The position numbers were made by a program, and so were the translations under genes. From Candidatus Iainarchaeum sp. (GTDB taxonomy: Archaea > Iainarchaeota > Iainarchaeia > Iainarchaeales > JAZDFD01), in the NCBI GenBank assembly GCA_043808155.1, contig JAZDFD010000007.1, positions 1 to 19,612 on the forward strand: DNA of 19,612 bases, written 5' to 3'. Below the pieces are notes generated by a model. The model was not told the origin of the DNA, made no database searches, and worked only from the letters and a program-made list of their open reading frames with translations. This document shows, in pieces, positions 4,602 to 10,942 of this stretch. Position 1 is the stretch's first letter. Each line of letters opens with the position of its first letter.

Positions 4602-7600
4602 CTAAACAAACTCTAATAGACTCTTCTGTTTATCGTCTTTTGTAATATTTGTCTCATCGACATACCCTGCAAATATTGAATCTATCTCATCAGAGATCAA
4701 ATCAATTCTTTGTTTCAAATAGTCTCCTAATTCATAATCATAAATCATCTTTCTTGCAATCTCAAGATATTTTCTTACTGATCCCTGTGCAATTGTAAGA
4801 ATTATTTTATCTTTTCCGCATTTAGTACACTTTCCATTCAGCGGAATACGCCGGTATTTTGTATTGCAGTTAGTGCATCTGAAAGTCTGCCTTGAGAATG
4901 CACGTGCGTTTCCTATAATATCTGGGAAGAAATGTGTTGCAAGTACTCTTTCCAATGCATCTTTACTGTCAACCGCACTTATTGAATTTTGCAGTTCTGC
5001 CTGCGCTTTCATTTTGCCTTCCATTGTTGTGAGCTGTACATATCTCGATATTGAAGGTCCATCATCAAACGCATTTGTTTCGTGAGTATAACCAAGGCCA
5101 CTGTATTGTTTTTTATCATCTAATCTGTTTTTTACAAACTCAAGCCCAGAATCATCTGCCTTATAAAATTTCTCTGCTTTTTCATAAAATTCAAGCGGAT
5201 AGTCAAAACATGTTTCCATAAGATGAACTTCCTCATCAATTTCTGTTGGATTAAGTGCAACTGTAAAAACTAATGGTGCATCCATTCTGCCACCACGTGA
5301 ACTTGGTAAATAACTCTGTGAAAAATTAACCAATCCATCCATCAGCAGCATTATTGAATCCTGATCTCCATCAATGTTTCTTCTTTTAGTTTGATGAAAA
5401 TAAGGGTGTGCGAAACAAACTCTTGATTTTGTAAACCCAATCACTCTGCCAATAATTCCTGCAGATGTGTGCGGTGCAAGTCCCAAAAAAAGCTCGTCAA
5501 TAAGTTCTTCCCGAGAAGACATATTAAACACAGGGGGCAGTTTGTAAAATCTTTCCATTAATTCATCCATGAACTGAGTTACTGAAACAAAAAAGTCACC
5601 TGCTTTATCATGTATTATCATATCCTGCGGAAAAATTTCCAGCATTTGCTCATCACTTTCAATTGGATTTCCATGTATATCTTTCACATAACCAAGTTTT
5701 TTTACTGCTTCAACACTAAGTTTAATTTCTTTTGGTTTAAAGTGTGTAAGAGGCGCATTAATCAGTTCATATCTTATTGTTCCGTCTCTGAAAATATGTA
5801 CATTATGTCTTGCTCTAATAATTCCTTTTTCTAATGGTTCACATATTTTATCTGCGTTTATGATTCCTTTAACACCTTTTACAAGTTCCGGCATTCTGAC
5901 ACCAAGATTTTCTTCAGCATGTGAAATTATTTCTGAAAGATCAATTTGTCTTTTAGAAAAATGAGATATGTCTGTTCCGCATTTCGGACATTTCTTTTCA
6001 TTACTTTTGATTTTGCATTTTGGACAGCTTCCGACTAAAACAGTTCTCTCTCCGCATTCCAAACACCAAGAACCATAATTTATTTTTCCGCATTTCGGAC
6101 ATTTGAATTCCGCAATCTCTATGTCTAATTTTGTGTTTTTTTCGTCTATTTTTGACATTGCTTTATTTATCGAACGTGTATTTGTGCCCCATAATCCAAT
6201 AGGAAATAAAACATTAGGATTACCAATCATTTTTCTCGGTCTTGATGCTTCAGGCCTTCCCATTCTTGCGCCAATCCAAGTTCCAGCTTTATCTCTTATT
6301 TCAAGACCTGAAATTTTGCTCAATACCTGATGAATATTTTTAGATTCCAAATCTTCTGCACTTAGTTTTCCTTTTCCTTTCAAAACACCAAATGTTTTCA
6401 GAAGAGGGTAAGCATATTCTTCGTCAATAACAATTTTTTCATTTTCAACTGAATGTGGCAATCCAATATTTTCAAAAATTTCTTTTATCTCTTCATTAGT
6501 GTCAATTTCAATTCCAACAATTTTTGAATGTTCCTCAATTTTTCTGCCCTCATTTAATGCAGAAATAATTTCTTTTAAATCTTCTAATTTAATCGCACTG
6601 TAATAATGCAAAAATTTTGGATTTAAAGGTACGCTGTATTTTTCAGAAAGTTCAACTGCTTCATATGGTTCTGTTTTTTCAGGATTTTTAATCAGTTCCT
6701 TAATTCTCTCAGTCTTATGTTCAATTTTTTTCTCAATTTCCTTTGCCCACCATTCCTCACAGTAACCTGCAGGAACTAAAGAATGTGCTGAGTAATTAAA
6801 ATCCCCTACTGCCACTAATAAATCGCCAATGAACAGAATTTTTTCGAAATCATTTCTCATTCCAATTGCTTCTTCTGCTGTTTTTATTTTCACAACATTT
6901 CCATTTTTTAATTTAACAATCGGACCTTCAATTGAATCAACAGCAGCCATACCTGCAGCTTTCCCTGGACGTTCAACTTTAATTTGTGTTCCAACAGCAA
7001 TAAACTCATCTAATGCATACATTGTTGCGGGACTGCATCCTTTGCCCATTATGCCCATGTTACGCCCTCTGCCATATCTCAATCGGAATCCCCCAATTCG
7101 TGAAGGATATGCAAAAATAGGCCTTCCCGCAGCTGTACCTATCAAATATTTTTCATTTGGTTTAATTCCTTTTTCCTGAGAATCTGATTTCCCAACCTTG
7201 ATAATATCTTCAAGCCAGTCCCAGTCAAGTTTAAGCATTCTGCTGAACTTTAGAATTTTTTTTGCTTTTAGTGCAATTCCGTCACTCACAACAAGGCACA
7301 TTCCACCGCGAACTTTATTAGTTGGAATTCTTTTCAGGTCTCTGTTTAATGAAACTTCCCGATCTTCTGTTGGTTCGCCATTTATGCAAACCGGACATCC
7401 GCGTACAATTTTTTTGATTTCATCTTCTGAAATTTTATATTGACGCGAGTAAATTTCCTCGTAAATTAAAACTTCTTCAGCATATCTTTTAACTTCATCT
7501 TCTGTTGGTTTATATCTGTCTAATCCCATTAGTACGCGTGCGTAATCACCAAGAATTAATGGTAAAACTGCAGATGTTCCCCCTGCTGCTCTGATAGGAC

Positions 7601-8051
7601 CTGCATAATAAATGTCAATATATTTACTTCCATCGGGATTTGAATTAATTTCAACTCTTGGCACACCATCAAGAGGTGCAACAACAACTCCCTCTGTGTT
7701 CAGAACAAGAGCAGTTTTAATTGCCTGCGTAATTCTTTCGGCATCGTCTGGAATTTTATACCATTCCTGCTCAATTAGTTCTTTAAAAATTTTAAAAATT
7801 GTAAGTTCTCTGTTATTTTTCATTTCTTTCATTACTGTTCTGTAACGTGCCCCAATTCCCGGAGGTCCGATAATTGTTTCAGTTCTGTCTGCCAAATCCA
7901 GTGCAGGTGTTGTTTCAATATCTGTGCTTATGTCTAATCCTTTTTCTTTTGCTTCTTTTGCAATATTGTAATTGTCAGACATTTTTTCTGCAAGATGTTC
8001 ATAATATTTTTTTACAGAGTCTTCTGCTTTTACATTGACTTTGAAATTCAT
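4602..8051 (-). CDS. polC: DNA polymerase D large subunit DP2 (no intein)
   Basis: YYAGPIRAAGGT, GGFRLRYGRGRN, IGARMGRPE, FRDGTIRY, GLAPHTSAG, KRRNIDGDQD, RGGRMDAPL and CxxC zinc fingers. Start placed at ATG 8051 (MNFKV) after SD-like GAGGCG; the track start at 8090 lies inside the IS left end. Confidence 0.97.
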   Translation of the reverse strand: MNFKVNVKAEDSVKKYYEHLAEKMSDNYNIAKEAKEKGLDISTDIETTPALDLADRTETIIGPPGIGARYRTVMKEMKNNRELTIFKIFKELIEQEWYKIPDDAERITQAIKTALVLNTEGVVVAPLDGVPRVEINSNPDGSKYIDIYYAGPIRAAGGTSAVLPLILGDYARVLMGLDRYKPTEDEVKRYAEEVLIYEEIYSRQYKISEDEIKKIVRGCPVCINGEPTEDREVSLNRDLKRIPTNKVRGGMCLVVSDGIALKAKKILKFSRMLKLDWDWLEDIIKVGKSDSQEKGIKPNEKYLIGTAAGRPIFAYPSRIGGFRLRYGRGRNMGIMGKGCSPATMYALDEFIAVGTQIKVERPGKAAGMAAVDSIEGPIVKLKNGNVVKIKTAEEAIGMRNDFEKILFIGDLLVAVGDFNYSAHSLVPAGYCEEWWAKEIEKKIEHKTERIKELIKNPEKTEPYEAVELSEKYSVPLNPKFLHYYSAIKLEDLKEIISALNEGRKIEEHSKIVGIEIDTNEEIKEIFENIGLPHSVENEKIVIDEEYAYPLLKTFGVLKGKGKLSAEDLESKNIHQVLSKISGLEIRDKAGTWIGARMGRPEASRPRKMIGNPNVLFPIGLWGTNTRSINKAMSKIDEKNTKLDIEIAEFKCPKCGKINYGSWCLECGERTVLVGSCPKCKIKSNEKKCPKCGTDISHFSKRQIDLSEIISHAEENLGVRMPELVKGVKGIINADKICEPLEKGIIRARHNVHIFRDGTIRYELINAPLTHFKPKEIKLSVEAVKKLGYVKDIHGNPIESDEQMLEIFPQDMIIHDKAGDFFVSVTQFMDELMERFYKLPPVFNMSSREELIDELFLGLAPHTSAGIIGRVIGFTKSRVCFAHPYFHQTKRRNIDGDQDSIMLLMDGLVNFSQSYLPSSRGGRMDAPLVFTVALNPTEIDEEVHLMETCFDYPLEFYEKAEKFYKADDSGLEFVKNRLDDKKQYSGLGYTHETNAFDDGPSISRYVQLTTMEGKMKAQAELQNSISAVDSKDALERVLATHFFPDIIGNARAFSRQTFRCTNCNTKYRRIPLNGKCTKCGKDKIILTIAQGSVRKYLEIARKMIYDYELGDYLKQRIDLISDEIDSIFAGYVDETNITKDDKQKSLLEFV

Positions 8052-8151
8052 CAAAACCGCCTCAAGGATCTTGTGGTTCTCAGGAACCACGAGACATTAA
8101 GCGCTTTCAGCGCTTCACATACCCACAAATTTATTCGTGGGATGAATTGAG

Positions 8152-8165
8152 GCAAACCTTTAAAG
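8152..8165 (+). promoter_or_regulatory. Putative BRE/TATA promoter for tnpB
   Basis: GCAAACCTTTAAAG, with the TATA ~22-28 nt upstream of the in-frame TTG at 8187, which is leaderless-mRNA spacing. Confidence 0.45.
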
Positions 8166-8168
8166 TGA

Positions 8169-9413
8169 TTGCCTCGTATAAATATATTGGTTGATAGTTT
8201 GAAAAGAGCAATACAATTACAAATTGCTGATTTAACAAAATCAAAGACAAATGCTTTAAAAGAATTTAGCCAACAGGCTGTAAGCCTTGCTAATCTCTTA
8301 CTATCCAAAAGAAAAACTAAGCGATTGATGGACTTACATAACGCCACATATTTAACAAGCAAGAAAAACACCCCTTTTAATTCCCAAATTATCTGTGATA
8401 TTGAAAGAACTGTTGTTATATGTAAAGGAAAATATCTCAGAGCAATTACTGTCAAATTTAATGTTCCTCGCAACTGCAAGACTTTTGAAACAAAAGCCAA
8501 TTATTTTATTAGACTTGGAATGTATCCAAGAAAACGCTTTGCTGTTCCAATTAAACAGAATAGGAATTATCAAAGGTTTAAGTCCCTTCTTGAAAATGGT
8601 TGGATTTGTAAAACTTATGGGCTTACTTCCAATCTTGAAATAGTTGCATATCTTTCTAAAGAAGAAATTGAACTGCCTCAACGAAAAAACATTCTTGGTA
8701 TTGACATCAATAGCAAATGCTTTGCTGTTTCTGTTGTTTCTCCTGCTGGAAAAGTATTGAAGCAGACCTATTTTGGAAAGGACATCTGGGTAAAACGAAA
8801 AAAAATTTTTGAAAGAAAGGAAAGACTGCAATCTTTTGCTGATAGAGGAAGTAATCGAGCAAAAAAAAGCCTTGAAAGACTTAAACATAGGGAGCATAAC
8901 TTTGTTAAAAATCGGCTTGGCGAAGTTGTTAGAGATATTACTGAGATGGCTATTGAATATAATGCAGATATTGCTATTGAAAATCTTAAACGCTTTTCTC
9001 CAAAAGGAAAGCGATTTAACAAAGAAGTTATGCGTATCCCTTTCTATTCTTTTAAACAACTTCTTGAATCCCGATGTTTTGATAAAAATATTATGCTTAA
9101 TGTTGTTGATGCCTACCATACGAGTAAATGGTGTAGCCACTGCGGTGCTGTTGGCAAAGGGCATTCCAGCAATTATTCCTTGTTTAAATGCAAAGAATGC
9201 GGTCAAATAGTCAATAGTGATAGGAAGGCAAGCCTTGCTGTCGCTGTCAAATCCCTTTTGGAGCGGAAAAATCAAGCTATCAACCATAACTTGTTCTTCC
9301 AGTTTACCAATAGGCAAGTCCCTGTAAACGGGCTTCTGCGTCAAAATGACGAGTTTGTTTCTAATAGTGCTGTGCATCTTGATTCATCTCCGATTGAAAG
9401 CCCACTACTTTAG
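8169..9413 (+). CDS. tnpB: TnpB RNA-guided RuvC endonuclease (Cas12f/Cas14-related)
   Basis: RuvC-I LGIDIN, RuvC-II IAIENL, zinc finger CSHC...CKEC and RuvC-III VNSDRKAS; all three acidic catalytic positions are present. The true start may be TTG 8187. Confidence 0.93.
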   Translation: MPRINILVDSLKRAIQLQIADLTKSKTNALKEFSQQAVSLANLLLSKRKTKRLMDLHNATYLTSKKNTPFNSQIICDIERTVVICKGKYLRAITVKFNVPRNCKTFETKANYFIRLGMYPRKRFAVPIKQNRNYQRFKSLLENGWICKTYGLTSNLEIVAYLSKEEIELPQRKNILGIDINSKCFAVSVVSPAGKVLKQTYFGKDIWVKRKKIFERKERLQSFADRGSNRAKKSLERLKHREHNFVKNRLGEVVRDITEMAIEYNADIAIENLKRFSPKGKRFNKEVMRIPFYSFKQLLESRCFDKNIMLNVVDAYHTSKWCSHCGAVGKGHSSNYSLFKCKECGQIVNSDRKASLAVAVKSLLERKNQAINHNLFFQFTNRQVPVNGLLRQNDEFVSNSAVHLDSSPIESPLL

Positions 9414-9445
9414 TCGTGGGTTGTTTACCCTGTCACCTGATTCAA
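9280..9445 (+). ncRNA. Putative TnpB omegaRNA (reRNA) scaffold plus flanking guide
   Basis: Stem AAGTCC/GGGCTT (9316-9335) whose loop GTAAAC is complementary to terminal GTTTAC (9423-9428). Also hairpin CGTCA-AAA-TGACG (9339-9351) and the right-end hairpin 9401-9420. Both ends are approximate. Confidence 0.65.
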
Positions 9446-10942
9446 ATCATTTTTGTAAAAATATTTTTCAGTAAGTTTTCTGGTTTTCAAATCAATTACT
9501 GGCACAATTCCCGGAGTTGGTGTATGTCCTAATTTTGCTTGAAATGCAGTTTTTGCCTGGAATGTTCCTGAACAAATTGCACTACAGCCCCTATAAGTTC
9601 CATAACCATTGTGGTGCATCTCACCCATGAAAAAGAAATCAGGCACCTCCCTTATCAGCATGAAATTTTTCTTTTCAGGAACATATGGCTGGCGCGTCCC
9701 ATAAGCAGGCATTAAATCACGCCTTTTAAGAATTTCAATCATTCCCTCATGAGGTCTGCTTAAATCAAGGAAATTAACATTGCTGTGAAGATCGTGCAAA
9801 CATCCTCCGTGATACATTAAAACATTAAAACCCTCAATTTCCACTCTGCCAGGCGAACCAATAAGATGTACATTTTTCATTTCATAAAGTTCCGGAACTA
9901 ATGTTTTTGGAAGTGCAGGCTGAGGGTCTGCATGCCTTACTGCATCATGATTTCCCGGAATCATTACAATTTCAATATGTTCCGGAATCTGTTTAATATA
10001 CTCAACAAATTGTTCATATTGTTTAGTTATACTTTTGACACTCAGTTCATCATACTGGTTTGGATAAATCCCAATTCCATCAACATTGTCACCAGTCATC
10101 ACAATATACTTCACTTTACCAGCTGCTTCTCTTTCCTTTTCAGAAGCAATTTCACAATTTATCCATGCTAAAAATTTATTAAATGCATTTTCCAGATGAA
10201 GTTTACTTCCGACGTGCAAATCAGTAAGCCCGACAATTGAAATATCCTCATTAATTGTTTTCATTTCACGTATTGGCAAATCAGGTAAATAAATTTCATT
10301 TGCAAGAACAAGTTCATCACTTAGTTTAGTTGCTTTAATACCAATTACATCATCAAGTATAATTCTATCACTTGCTTTCTGCATTGCATGATCATTTTTT
10401 GAAAAAACAACAATGCATTTCCCATCCAAATCTTCAAGCTCTACTGCCGTATGCCCGTTTTTAGTTACCCATTTTTTTGAAATCATTCCAATTAAATCAA
10501 TTTTCTCTTTATCAGGAATTGATTTTATTTTTGAAATTTCTCTTGGTGCAAGAGCATGCCTCTTGTTCAGTTCATTTTTCAGAAATTCGAATTTGCTCTG
10601 GAACATATTCAAAAAATCTTTCACACTTCCGCCACAATTACTCTGCCCAGTAACATCCCATTCTGAAATAATTTTTAAATTAGAATCATAGTCTTTTGCT
10701 TTTGGTTTAAAATGTGATTTTACTGCAACAACTTCTTTCTCAACAGAATCCAGTTTTGTTTTCAATACTTTATTCTTTAAATTTTCAACACTTACTGTGA
10801 ACTCATTCGCATTTGCAATTTCATCTATGATTTCTTTGAAATCATCTCTGTCTTTAAGAAGTTTTAATGCCCCTGGCTCTACAAAAAGATTTTTCTCATT
10901 TGCATAACTTACAATTGCCTGTTCTTTTTCATTATGTGCCAT
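9425..10942 (-). CDS. polB: DNA polymerase D small subunit DP1 (3'-5' proofreading exonuclease, calcineurin-like phosphoesterase fold)
   Basis: OB-fold region (ELEDLDG...DDVIGI), TDLHVGS, GDNVDGIGIYPNQ, PGNHDAVRHADPQP, YHG, GTFQAKTAFQ and PTPGIVP. The stop codon overlaps the IS right end. Confidence 0.96.
   Translation of the reverse strand: MAHNEKEQAIVSYANEKNLFVEPGALKLLKDRDDFKEIIDEIANANEFTVSVENLKNKVLKTKLDSVEKEVVAVKSHFKPKAKDYDSNLKIISEWDVTGQSNCGGSVKDFLNMFQSKFEFLKNELNKRHALAPREISKIKSIPDKEKIDLIGMISKKWVTKNGHTAVELEDLDGKCIVVFSKNDHAMQKASDRIILDDVIGIKATKLSDELVLANEIYLPDLPIREMKTINEDISIVGLTDLHVGSKLHLENAFNKFLAWINCEIASEKEREAAGKVKYIVMTGDNVDGIGIYPNQYDELSVKSITKQYEQFVEYIKQIPEHIEIVMIPGNHDAVRHADPQPALPKTLVPELYEMKNVHLIGSPGRVEIEGFNVLMYHGGCLHDLHSNVNFLDLSRPHEGMIEILKRRDLMPAYGTRQPYVPEKKNFMLIREVPDFFFMGEMHHNGYGTYRGCSAICSGTFQAKTAFQAKLGHTPTPGIVPVIDLKTRKLTEKYFYKNDLNQVTG

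What the first reader, a model, noticed from the sequence alone, without database searches (positions are those of the whole stretch)
8051..9391. Antisense ORF relay across the whole IS: a possibly 'translationally transparent' transposon
Seen: on the host (minus) strand, 47 nt after the new DP1 stop, an ATG at 9377 follows SD-like GGAGATGA (9391-9384, 6 nt spacing). It opens 341 codons, codon-aligned and antisense to tnpB. This requires tnpB to avoid TTA, CTA and TCA over roughly 25 Leu and 24 Ser codons (manual count), whereas the first ~62 tnpB codons use TTA five times plus CTA and TCA. Four nt after that ORF's TAA (8354-8352), a GTG at 8347 lies in a second stop-free frame (open from at least 8500). 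That frame crosses the left end, enters the ancestral DP1 frame (element length 1359 = 3 x 453) and ends at the TGATG overlapping the DP2 start. Established: archaea couple transcription and translation, and untranslated RNA is subject to factor-dependent termination (FttA/aCPSF1). Inference: keeping ribosomes on the antisense strand could prevent polarity and restore coupling to DP2. Alternatively this is an overprinted gene. The F/I/K/S-rich products look like shadow ORFs, so the act of translation may matter more than the protein.
Basis: partly seen in the sequence, partly recalled or inferred. Interest (0 to 1): 0.75.

Follow-up and report, generated by a model that had tools for sequence, protein, structure and literature searches.

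The report
Transposon carrying an antisense ribosome relay
A small TnpB transposon sits exactly on the stop codon between two essential DNA-polymerase genes, and it and dozens of distant relatives keep their reverse strand readable by ribosomes from end to end, apparently so that the host genes on either side still work.

Summary
The antisense ORFs are real and far beyond chance. In 90 sequences of this TnpB clade (54-78% identity, 32-58% GC), 55 have no antisense stop and 15 have one in tnpB codons 63-405, where about 10 are expected. Seventeen decayed copies and 23 unrelated tnpB genes of the same phylum carry roughly the expected number.

A second antisense frame covers the rest of the element. 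In one clade a single frame covers all of it.

Its right end supplies G+TAA, so DP1 still ends ...QVTG*. Its left end abuts the host's ATGA, so antisense ORF2 stops on the host's old TGA, overlapping the DP2 ATG.

Across the family:
- 23 of 27 upstream host ORFs end on the element's TAA.
- 35 of 45 relays end at the left boundary.
- 28 of 38 intact relays, against 2 of 13 decayed ones, abut a host gene start.

A second case splits Nop5 from fibrillarin. No extra amino-acid constraint and no predicted fold (pLDDT 29) were found.

Best reading (0.55): a translational relay that makes the insertion harmless inside operons. No expression data exist, and U-tracts on the antisense strand are a caveat.

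The parts
8048..8051 (+). Target motif TCAT on the tnpB strand. On the host strand it reads ATGA, which is the DP2 start ATG (8051-8049) overlapping the inferred former DP1 stop TGA.
   Evidence: Family end alignment. Four near-identical copies diverge just left of TCAT. Relatives show ATGA overlaps between DP1 and DP2.
8052..9428 (+). The IS200/IS605-family, tnpB-only (IS1341-type) element, 1377 nt.
   Evidence: Conservation starts and stops at these positions in 20 aligned family members. It is a single copy in the genome.
8052..8198 (+). Left end. It holds CAAAAC-CGCCTCAAGG, a private in-frame 51-nt two-hairpin insertion (8069-8119), the hairpin cccac...gtggg (8122-8141), and GATGAATTGAGG, which pairs with CCTCAA.
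8169..9413 (+). tnpB open frame. The probable start is TTG at 8199, because homologs begin MKRAI. The stop is TAG 9411-9413.
   Evidence: Pfam PF07282 at 47 bits (cut-off 26.3); RuvC_1 and OrfB_IS605 fall below cut-off. There are 575 homologs. The D/E/D columns are invariant in 90 of 90 sequences.
9395..9428 (+). Right end: hairpin 9401-9420 and terminal GTTTAC 9423-9428.
   Evidence: GG(T)A-G(T/C)TTAC ends the conserved block in the family.
9425..9427 (-). DP1's present stop codon TAA, supplied by the right-end terminus (GG|G TAA AC).
   Evidence: In 23 of 27 non-duplicate loci the upstream host ORF ends on this TAA.
9384..9391 (-). SD-like GGAGATGA, 6 nt before the ORF1 ATG. The in-frame TGA it contains closes the frame upstream.
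   Evidence: The host 16S ends GGATCACCTCCT.
8352..9377 (-). Antisense ORF1: 341 codons plus TAA, codon-aligned with tnpB codons 403-62.
8051..8362 (-). Antisense ORF2, in the +1 frame relative to ORF1. The family-conserved candidate start is TTG 8362-8360, 6 nt after GGGGTG (8374-8369). The frame is open from 8500. The stop TGA 8053-8051 overlaps the DP2 ATG.
9425..10942 (-). PolD small subunit DP1, 505 aa, ending ...NQVTG*.
   Evidence: Pfam DNA_pol_E_B and Metallophos. Orthologs found in 26 of 26 relatives.
4602..8051 (-). PolD large subunit DP2, 1149 aa from ATG 8051.
   Evidence: Pfam PolC_DP2_N, PolC_DP2_central and PolC_DP2_cat. It lies next to DP1 in 10 of 11 relatives' loci examined.

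Best explanation
The element is an IS1341-type (tnpB-only) IS200/IS605 transposon of a clade that has adapted to sit, antisense, on the stop codon of a host gene inside a transcription unit without disturbing the host genes.

Shown by sequence comparison:
- It is inserted between the 2nd and 3rd base of DP1's last codon, just before R-TGA (the target TCAY on the tnpB strand).
- Its right end gives DP1 a G and a TAA, so DP1 is unchanged.
- Its reverse strand carries SD+ATG, then a 341-codon ORF, then an overlapping second ORF.
- The second ORF terminates on the host's original TGA, which overlaps the DP2 ATG.
- Selection keeps these frames open and keeps the ATG, but does not constrain the encoded amino acids.

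Inferred:
- The DP1 transcript reads through the element.
- Ribosomes released at the TAA start again 50 nt on.
- They are relayed from ORF1 to ORF2 and terminate at TGATG, so DP2 is re-initiated as before the insertion.
- The mRNA is never left untranslated, which avoids polarity or decay.
For: 1. Stop avoidance. Of 90 sequences, 55 have 0, 15 have 1, 3 have 2 and 17 have 3 or more antisense stops in codons 63-405, where 4-19 are expected from each gene's own third-position usage. In the 17 decayed ones, observed roughly matches expected.
2. Controls. 23 unrelated tnpB genes of the same phylum have 4-44 stops and none has 0.
3. Phylogeny. The open state is spread over the whole tree, with at least 7 independent losses forced by well-supported branches. 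One member at 41% identity also has 0 stops against 14.9 expected.
4. Second frame. In codons 2-70, 1.78 stops are expected and 0.31 observed, with 51 of 62 sequences at zero. The 11 others are all but one from the clade whose first frame runs through the N-terminal part instead; the eleventh (L040) is a decayed copy whose first frame is also open there. Decayed copies show 1.85 expected against 1.80 observed.
5. Start codon. His is CAT in 53 of 55 cases at the start column, against 239 of 376 elsewhere (Fisher p 5e-8). The ATG lies 46-52 nt after the right-end TAA in about 40 of 53 loci.
6. Relay end. It stops at the left boundary in 35 of 45 loci (+1 in 26, -2 in 8, -3 in 1). The target-TGA frame is used in 26 of 37 ORFs that reach the boundary (p 5e-6).
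7. Upstream host ORFs end on the element's TAA in 23 of 27 loci (p 4e-8).
8. A host ORF of 50 or more codons starts at the boundary in 28 of 38 intact-relay loci against 2 of 13 decayed ones (Fisher p 6e-4, or 4e-3 on a conservative count).
9. A second case in an essential operon: the element lies between Nop5 and fibrillarin in L012. These genes are adjacent in 11 of 11 relatives and overlap as ATGA in 2.
10. No amino-acid constraint. Codon sharing at identical residues is 1.22 times expectation in both the open and the decayed class. AF2 gives pLDDT 29. Pfam gives no match.
11. The private 51-nt insertion in this copy's left end is in frame.
12. Strict coupling at ATGA/TGATG overlaps was shown by experiment in 13 of 14 pairs (abstract of PMC6728339).
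Against: - No RNA or ribosome data exist.
- The antisense strand of the element has two T8 runs and one T6 run: 2.18 T6+ per kb against 0.68 in host ORFs, and T8+ at 1.45 per kb against 0.03. A-runs are not depleted in intact members: 0.63 against 0.80 per gene. U-tracts are archaeal termination signals (abstract of PMC8716108, seen in a listing only).
- Only 18 of 47 evaluable intact loci have a long upstream host ORF ending on the TAA. 10 of 38 have no host gene start at the boundary. So many copies are not inside operons.
- The SD-like GAGG in the left end is limited to a sub-group.
- Left boundaries were located by searching for TCA[TC], so a TGA at the boundary is partly there by construction.
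- Loci are related, and most come from the best 80 of 251 metagenome matches.
- An outward promoter in the left end could drive DP2 on its own.
Confidence: 0.55

Rival explanations
1. ORF1 and ORF2 are overprinted genes whose protein products work for the transposon, for example as a regulator or helper of transposition. The fit to the host junction would then be incidental.
For: The start ATG is selected. An SD-like motif is present. The length is conserved at 330-354 aa. Gene callers have listed 27 such proteins.
Against: - Synonymous sites show no more constraint than in decayed copies: 1.22 in both classes.
- AF2 with 34 sequences gives pLDDT 29, pTM 0.12 and no secondary structure.
- Pfam gives no match.
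- One clade reads the last 60-odd codons in a different frame, which gives an unrelated peptide.
- The stop codon is host DNA.
Confidence: 0.12
2. Antisense translation serves the element itself. Ribosomes on host read-through RNA would stop that RNA from pairing with tnpB mRNA or the guide RNA. Alternatively, coupled antisense transcription and translation would expose the top strand for excision.
For: The ORF1 start lies opposite the 3' end of tnpB and the right end, where guide RNAs of this family arise (recalled, not tested). The feature is a property of element lineages.
Against: This does not predict the following:
- The relay ends on the host TGA.
- Upstream host genes end on the element's TAA.
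- Intactness tracks a downstream host gene.
No Y1 transposase was found in this 88%-complete genome.
Confidence: 0.15
3. The ORFs are shadow ORFs produced by codon bias or recent transfer from a donor that rarely uses TTA, CTA and TCA.
For: The product is rich in F, I, K and S, like a shadow ORF. The gene prefers CTT, TCT and AGC.
Against: - The gene's GC (34.9%) equals the host's (35.0%).
- A-ending codons are used freely in other codon families (pA2 0.79).
- The depletion is frame-specific: 12 and 33 stops in the other antisense frames.
- It stops sharply at codons 62 and 406.
- It holds from 32 to 58% GC.
- It is absent in decayed sister lineages and in 23 control tnpB genes.
Confidence: 0.02

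Closest known systems
[quoted passage not shown]
   Same: They are TnpB-bearing transposons of the same superfamily that limit the cost of inserting into host transcription units (abstract of PMC10690162).
   Different: IStrons remove themselves from the RNA by splicing, in the sense orientation. Here nothing is removed. The element stays in the mRNA in antisense orientation and would be translated through. No intron family matched the region in Rfam.
Translationally coupled overlapping gene pairs (ATGA / TGATG, termination-reinitiation)
   Same: ORF2 and DP2 share TGATG. ORF1 and ORF2 overlap by 11 nt after an SD-like motif. The ancestral DP1-DP2 and Nop5-fibrillarin junctions are of this type in relatives (abstract of PMC6728339).
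   Different: In this case the upstream partners are transposon-borne antisense ORFs with no constrained product. They are inserted between two host genes that were formerly coupled directly.
Ordinary IS1341-type / IS200-IS605 tnpB elements
   Same: The element has TnpB with RuvC and zinc-ribbon parts, sub-terminal hairpins, insertion next to a short conserved motif, and no direct repeats.
   Different: 23 other tnpB genes from the same phylum have 4-44 antisense stops. No paper found in my searches describes an antisense ORF in tnpB or insertion on stop codons.
Antisense overlapping genes and 'shadow ORFs' (e.g. HIV-1 asp, long antisense ORFs in Pseudomonas)
   Same: It is a long ORF embedded antisense in a known gene and kept open by avoiding particular synonymous codons (listings).
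   Different: Those cases are argued to encode selected proteins. Here no amino-acid constraint or fold was detected, and the frame can be swapped.
Rickettsia palindromic elements inserted in frame in genes (recalled from memory, not checked)
   Same: They are selfish DNA tolerated inside coding or transcribed regions because translation continues through it.
   Different: Those are about 100-150 bp and become part of the host protein. Here a 1.4-kb element is translated as separate ORFs between two intact host proteins.

Membership tests
IS200/IS605 family, tnpB-only (IS1341-type) element | Encodes TnpB (RuvC-like nuclease with a zinc-ribbon/TNB domain) | tested here: met
   PF07282 at 47 bits, over the 26.3 cut-off. 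RuvC_1 (23.8) and OrfB_IS605 (23.4) fall just under their cut-offs. D/E/D columns are invariant in 90 of 90 sequences.
IS200/IS605 family, tnpB-only (IS1341-type) element | Sub-terminal imperfect hairpins at both ends, and no terminal inverted repeats | tested here: met
   Similar hairpins lie at 8122-8141 and 9401-9420. They are conserved with covarying stems across members.
IS200/IS605 family, tnpB-only (IS1341-type) element | Inserts 3' of a short conserved motif without target duplication | tested here: inconclusive
   TCA[T/C] abuts the left end in 54 non-duplicate loci, but it was used to find the boundary. Independent support comes from four near-identical copies with different flanks that diverge just left of TCAT. 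No flanking direct repeat is seen in the window.
IS200/IS605 family, tnpB-only (IS1341-type) element | Y1 (HUH) transposase TnpA available in cis or trans | tested here: not met
   PF01797 was not found in the 88%-complete genome. This is not required for the tnpB-only subgroup, but this copy may be immobile.
IS200/IS605 family, tnpB-only (IS1341-type) element | Guide (omega) RNA from the 3' end of tnpB and the right end | not tested
   Rfam gave no match in 7900-9600. No model was built.
Protein-coding antisense overlapping gene | Purifying selection on the encoded amino acids beyond what the sense gene imposes | tested here: not met
   The codon-sharing ratio is 1.22 in intact members and 1.22 in decayed ones. 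This is a coarse test.
Protein-coding antisense overlapping gene | A foldable or recognisable product | tested here: not met
   AF2 gives pLDDT 29.3 with 34 sequences. Pfam gives no match.
Protein-coding antisense overlapping gene | Transcribed and translated | not testable with these tools
   No RNA holder is listed.
Termination-reinitiation coupled gene pair | Co-directional ORFs whose stop and start codons overlap (ATGA/TGATG) | tested here: met
   TGATG lies at 8053-8049. The relay ends at the boundary in 35 of 45 loci.
Termination-reinitiation coupled gene pair | Downstream translation depends on upstream translation | not testable with these tools
   This needs a reporter experiment.
IStron | Group I intron within the element | tested here: not met
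   No intron family matched in the Rfam scan at E up to 1.

The most novel reading that the evidence does not exclude
A whole clade of archaeal TnpB transposons has evolved a third way, besides introns and inteins, for selfish DNA to be phenotypically silent. They settle on the stop codon of a host gene and give that gene a replacement stop from their own end. They also carry a product-less chain of antisense ORFs that hands ribosomes back to the host's original stop codon. Downstream genes, even essential ones such as PolD DP2 and fibrillarin, then stay transcribed and translationally coupled.
Probability: 0.5. Interest if true: 0.92.

Novelty: new variant of a known kind. Interest (0 to 1): 0.88.

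Why it matters
- It would show that selection can maintain a 340-450-codon reading frame purely for ribosome traffic. This would be a clean natural example of an ORF that is functional while its protein is not.
- It would explain how transposons persist in tiny, gene-dense DPANN-type genomes. Here the element lies inside the DP1-DP2 operon, and in another genome inside the Nop5-fibrillarin operon.
- It gives a direct handle on archaeal polarity and transcription-translation coupling. This question is still open: the Discussion of PMC11616081 calls it a hypothesis.
- It bears on genome annotation, because 27 such 'proteins' are already in databases.
- It bears on the design of TnpB-based insertions that do not disturb operons.

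Tried and rejected
- Codon bias or foreign origin as the cause was rejected.
- A test for amino-acid-level constraint on the antisense product found no excess over decayed copies. The test is coarse, and Leu, Ser, Met and Trp were excluded.
- AF2 of the ORF1 product predicted no fold. A 34-row alignment is shallow.
- Pfam gave no match for ORF1 or ORF2. Rfam gave only two sub-threshold chance matches.
- Expression: no RNA holder was listed.
- My first, crude orientation count used the longest flanking ORFs. It gave 17 loci with both flanks antisense, 6 with both sense and 17 mixed among intact loci, with a similar bias in decayed ones. I replaced it with boundary-anchored tests.
- My first regex for the ends read the wrong triplet for the right-end TAA and mis-placed several left ends. 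This was corrected. L031 was fixed by hand to the TCAT seen in its sister L086.
- In 26 of 80 non-duplicate loci no left boundary could be placed, either because no anchor motif was found or because the contig ended. In 21 of 80 the right flank was missing or too short.
- Depletion of antisense U-tracts was not found. This counts against the reading.
- I asked whether other copies also sit at DP1-DP2. No DP1 or DP2 homology was found in the other 93 loci.
- A +1 frameshift joining ORF1 to ORF2 was considered. The SD-like motif lies 15 nt before the stop, not the short spacing of the RF2-type site (recalled), so re-initiation at the conserved TTG seems likelier. This was not tested.
- Rows dropped: four short homologs (L007, L008, L009, L015) were left out of the 90. 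Ten near-identical loci (L021, L024, L029, L033, L039, L046, L049, L054, L064, L075) were counted once.
- The tree is the quick IQ-TREE search, because the careful one did not finish.
- Not used: the search of protein representatives, complex prediction, the protein-atlas search, fold search, search_dna_similar and the listing of cluster members.
- Supplementary files of papers were not opened. None bears on a claim made here.
Full report
WHAT IS IN THE WINDOW

The window is contig C7 of a 1.08-Mb archaeal genome bin with 35% GC, 88% complete. On the minus strand lie the two subunits of DNA polymerase D:
- DP1 at 10942-9425.
- DP2 from ATG 8051 (Pfam).

Between them, on the plus strand, is a tnpB gene. 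Its frame runs 8169-9413 and its probable start is TTG 8199. PF07282 scores over cut-off. The RuvC D/E/D columns are conserved in 90 of 90 family members. It is a single copy in the genome. No Y1 transposase was found. In 10 of the 11 relatives' loci examined, DP2 follows DP1 directly, and in three of them through an ATGA overlap.

THE OBSERVATION

- tnpB codons 63-405 contain 26 Leu and 24 Ser codons and not one TTA, CTA or TCA. Codons 1-62 contain eight.
- The host uses TTA for 32% of Leu and TCA for 39.5% of Ser. This gives P about 3e-11.
- The run is the longest of 469 long ORFs in the genome; the next is 162 codons.
- The gene has the host's GC and uses A-ending codons freely elsewhere. 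From its own third-position usage, 11.8 antisense stops are expected.
- The other two antisense frames carry 12 and 33 stops.

RELATIVES

I fetched 93 loci encoding relatives. Seven came from genome contigs, six from genomes of the same phylum, and 80 were the best of 251 metagenome matches.

Ninety sequences (the window's plus 89) have at least 300 aligned codons in the region. They span 54-78% identity to the window, plus two at about 40%, and 32-58% GC.
- In codons 63-405, 55 have no antisense stop, 15 have one (seven of these at the very edge), 3 have two, and 17 have three to fourteen.
- The internal null expects 4-19 stops in each sequence. In the 17 'decayed' sequences, observed is close to expected, so the null is calibrated.
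- Codon 62 is itself TTA, TCA or CTA in most members, although the TnpB residue there varies between Leu and Ser. Codon 406 or 407 is often TCA.
- On a quick maximum-likelihood tree, the open state is spread over the whole family, with at least seven losses forced by well-supported branches.
- Twenty-three unrelated tnpB genes (20-32% identity) from the same phylum have 4-44 antisense stops. None has zero.

Codon bias is therefore excluded. This clade is selected to keep that frame open.

THE SECOND FRAME AND THE 'RELAY'

In most intact members the frame +1 to ORF1 is open from about codon 71 of tnpB. It runs through the tnpB start and the whole left end.
- In codons 2-70 of that frame, 1.78 stops are expected and 0.31 are seen. 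51 of 62 non-duplicate intact members have none.
- The 11 members that do have stops are, with one exception, the clade in which the first frame runs on through the N-terminal part, giving single antisense ORFs of 425-496 codons. The exception, L040, is a decayed copy whose first frame is also open there.
- In decayed members, 1.85 are expected and 1.80 seen.

The two solutions are interchangeable although they encode unrelated peptides.

A TTG, 6 nt after GAGGTG (GGGGTG in the window) and 8 nt before the ORF1 stop, is present in nearly all two-ORF members.

The ORF1 ATG is the complement of a His codon.
- That codon is CAT in 53 of 55 cases, against 239 of 376 for other His codons of the same genes (Fisher p 5e-8).
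- It lies 46-52 nt from the right-end TAA in about 40 of 53 loci.

THE BORDERS, AND WHAT THEY DO TO THE HOST GENES

Aligning the ends of 20 members, and anchoring on the conserved GAGGAATTG motif, shows two things:
- The right end finishes ...GGTA-G(T/C)TTAC|.
- The left end begins just after TCA[T/C].

In the window this gives 8052-9428, 1377 nt, not 1359. Four near-identical copies in different places diverge just left of TCAT.

Read on the host strand, the junctions are ...ACA GG|G TAA AC...[element]...GGTTTTG|ATG AAT. From this I infer the following:
- The empty site was ACA GGA TGA, with the DP2 ATG in an ATGA overlap.
- DP1 keeps its exact C-terminus (...QVTG). A relative's DP1 also ends ...ETG.
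- DP1's new stop is the element's TAA.
- The old TGA region now ends antisense ORF2, as TGATG.

It carries a private 51-nt insertion of two hairpins (8069-8119). That insertion is in frame for ORF2 and is unique in the genome.

Family-wide counts:
- Of 27 non-duplicate loci with an antisense host ORF of 60 or more codons abutting the right end, 23 end on the element's TAA. One third would be expected (p 4e-8).
- Of 45 intact loci with a placeable left boundary, the relay stops at the boundary in 35.
- Of 37 relays that reach the boundary, 26 use the frame of the target TGA (p 5e-6).

In a second boundary type (TCAC|), the junction reads AAGG|TGA. This is an SD-like AGGTGA, with the host start 3-11 nt further on.

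Caveat: boundaries were found by looking for TCA[TC], so a TGA at the boundary is partly there by construction. What is not there by construction is that the frame is open all the way to the boundary, and which frame it is in.

HOST CONTEXT

- A host ORF of 50 or more codons starts at the boundary in 28 of 38 loci with an intact relay. It does so in 2 of 13 loci with one or more internal stops (Fisher p 6e-4, or 4e-3 after collapsing related rows).
- The null rate for any antisense ATG in the flanks is 26%.
- In genome G165, a 1377-nt member lies between Nop5 (ending ...KR, then G|TAA) and fibrillarin, whose ATG is at the boundary. These genes are adjacent in 11 of 11 relatives, with ATGA overlaps in two.
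- Other interrupted pairs include a ParA-like ATPase with an unknown ORF, HerA with TspO, and PAC2 with a flavin reductase.
- Five members have a premature stop in tnpB but an intact relay. This is suggestive only.

IS THERE A PROTEIN?

- At columns where two members share the TnpB residue (Leu, Ser, Met and Trp excluded), they share the codon 1.22 times as often as expected. This holds in intact and in decayed members alike.
- Every synonymous third-position change alters the first position of the antisense codon. The antisense amino acids therefore appear unconstrained.
- AF2 with a 34-sequence alignment gives pLDDT 29 and no secondary structure.
- Pfam gives no match.
- Gene callers have nevertheless deposited 27 such 'proteins'.

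HOW IT MOST LIKELY WORKS

Shown: the anatomy described above and the selection on it.

Inferred:
- Transcription from the DP1 side reads through the element.
- Ribosomes finish DP1 at the TAA and load again at SD+ATG, 50 nt on.
- They translate ORF1 and pass to ORF2 at the overlapping TTG (or the GTG at 8347).
- They terminate on TGATG, where DP2 is re-initiated.

Strict coupling at such overlaps was shown for 13 of 14 pairs in Haloferax and E. coli (abstract of PMC6728339).

Whether ribosome cover also prevents FttA-type termination is open. The host has a 632-aa beta-CASP ORF. But the Discussion of PMC11616081 presents archaeal quality control of coupling as a hypothesis. The older polarity experiments in Thermococcus I only recall.

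AGAINST

- No RNA data exist.
- The antisense strand carries two T8 runs and one T6 run, which is denser than in host ORFs. Such runs are not depleted in intact members.
- Many copies are not flanked by host genes on both sides.
- The loci are related to one another, and most were picked as the best matches.

COMPARISON WITH WHAT IS KNOWN, AND NOVELTY

The element is an ordinary member of the IS200/IS605 tnpB-only group by its protein and its ends.

The closest known strategy is the IStron, which splices itself out of host RNA (abstract of PMC10690162). Here no intron is present, and the proposed remedy acts at the level of translation.

Five full-text searches found no report of the following:
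- an antisense ORF in tnpB;
- insertion of such elements on stop codons;
- a transposon-borne translational relay.

I rate the finding a new variant of a known kind. The bolder reading, a new class of 'silent' selfish DNA, I put at about even odds.

Noticed in passing
window 8069-8119: A 51-nt insertion made of two perfect small hairpins (GTGGTTC..GAACCAC and AAGCGCT..AGCGCTT) lies inside the left end. It is absent from all other family members aligned and unique in this genome. It is in frame for antisense ORF2.
   Followed up: partly
G000:C23:25545-25742 (L114): The genome holds a second, unrelated tnpB: a 413-codon ORF with 24% identity to the window's. It has 23 antisense stops against 32.9 expected, so it carries no relay.
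   Followed up: partly
L098 (G020:C84), between DP1 stop 1599 and DP2 start about 2440: In this relative, about 850 nt of other DNA separates DP1 from DP2. In the other relatives examined the two genes abut or overlap. This may be another insertion at the same junction.
   Followed up: no
G166:C44:1249-4095: DP1 matches in two pieces (residues 6-329 and 328-499) about 1.35 kb apart, within one 972-aa open frame. This looks like an intein or other in-frame insertion in DP1.
   Followed up: no
L004, L011, L033, L067, L088: These tnpB copies carry a premature in-frame stop codon (positions 65, 139, 56, 139, 391), yet their antisense frame has 0-1 stops.
   Followed up: partly
window 8169-8199: The listed tnpB ORF starts at TTG 8169. 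Homologs begin at the residue matching TTG 8199 (MKRAI...), which is preceded by TATA-like TATAAATATAT at 8178-8188.
   Followed up: no
L012 (G165:C1) and window: The two elements lying in essential operons (Nop5-fibrillarin and DP1-DP2) are both exactly 1377 nt long, although their TnpB proteins are only 66% identical and only the window's copy was seen to carry the 51-nt insertion.
   Followed up: no
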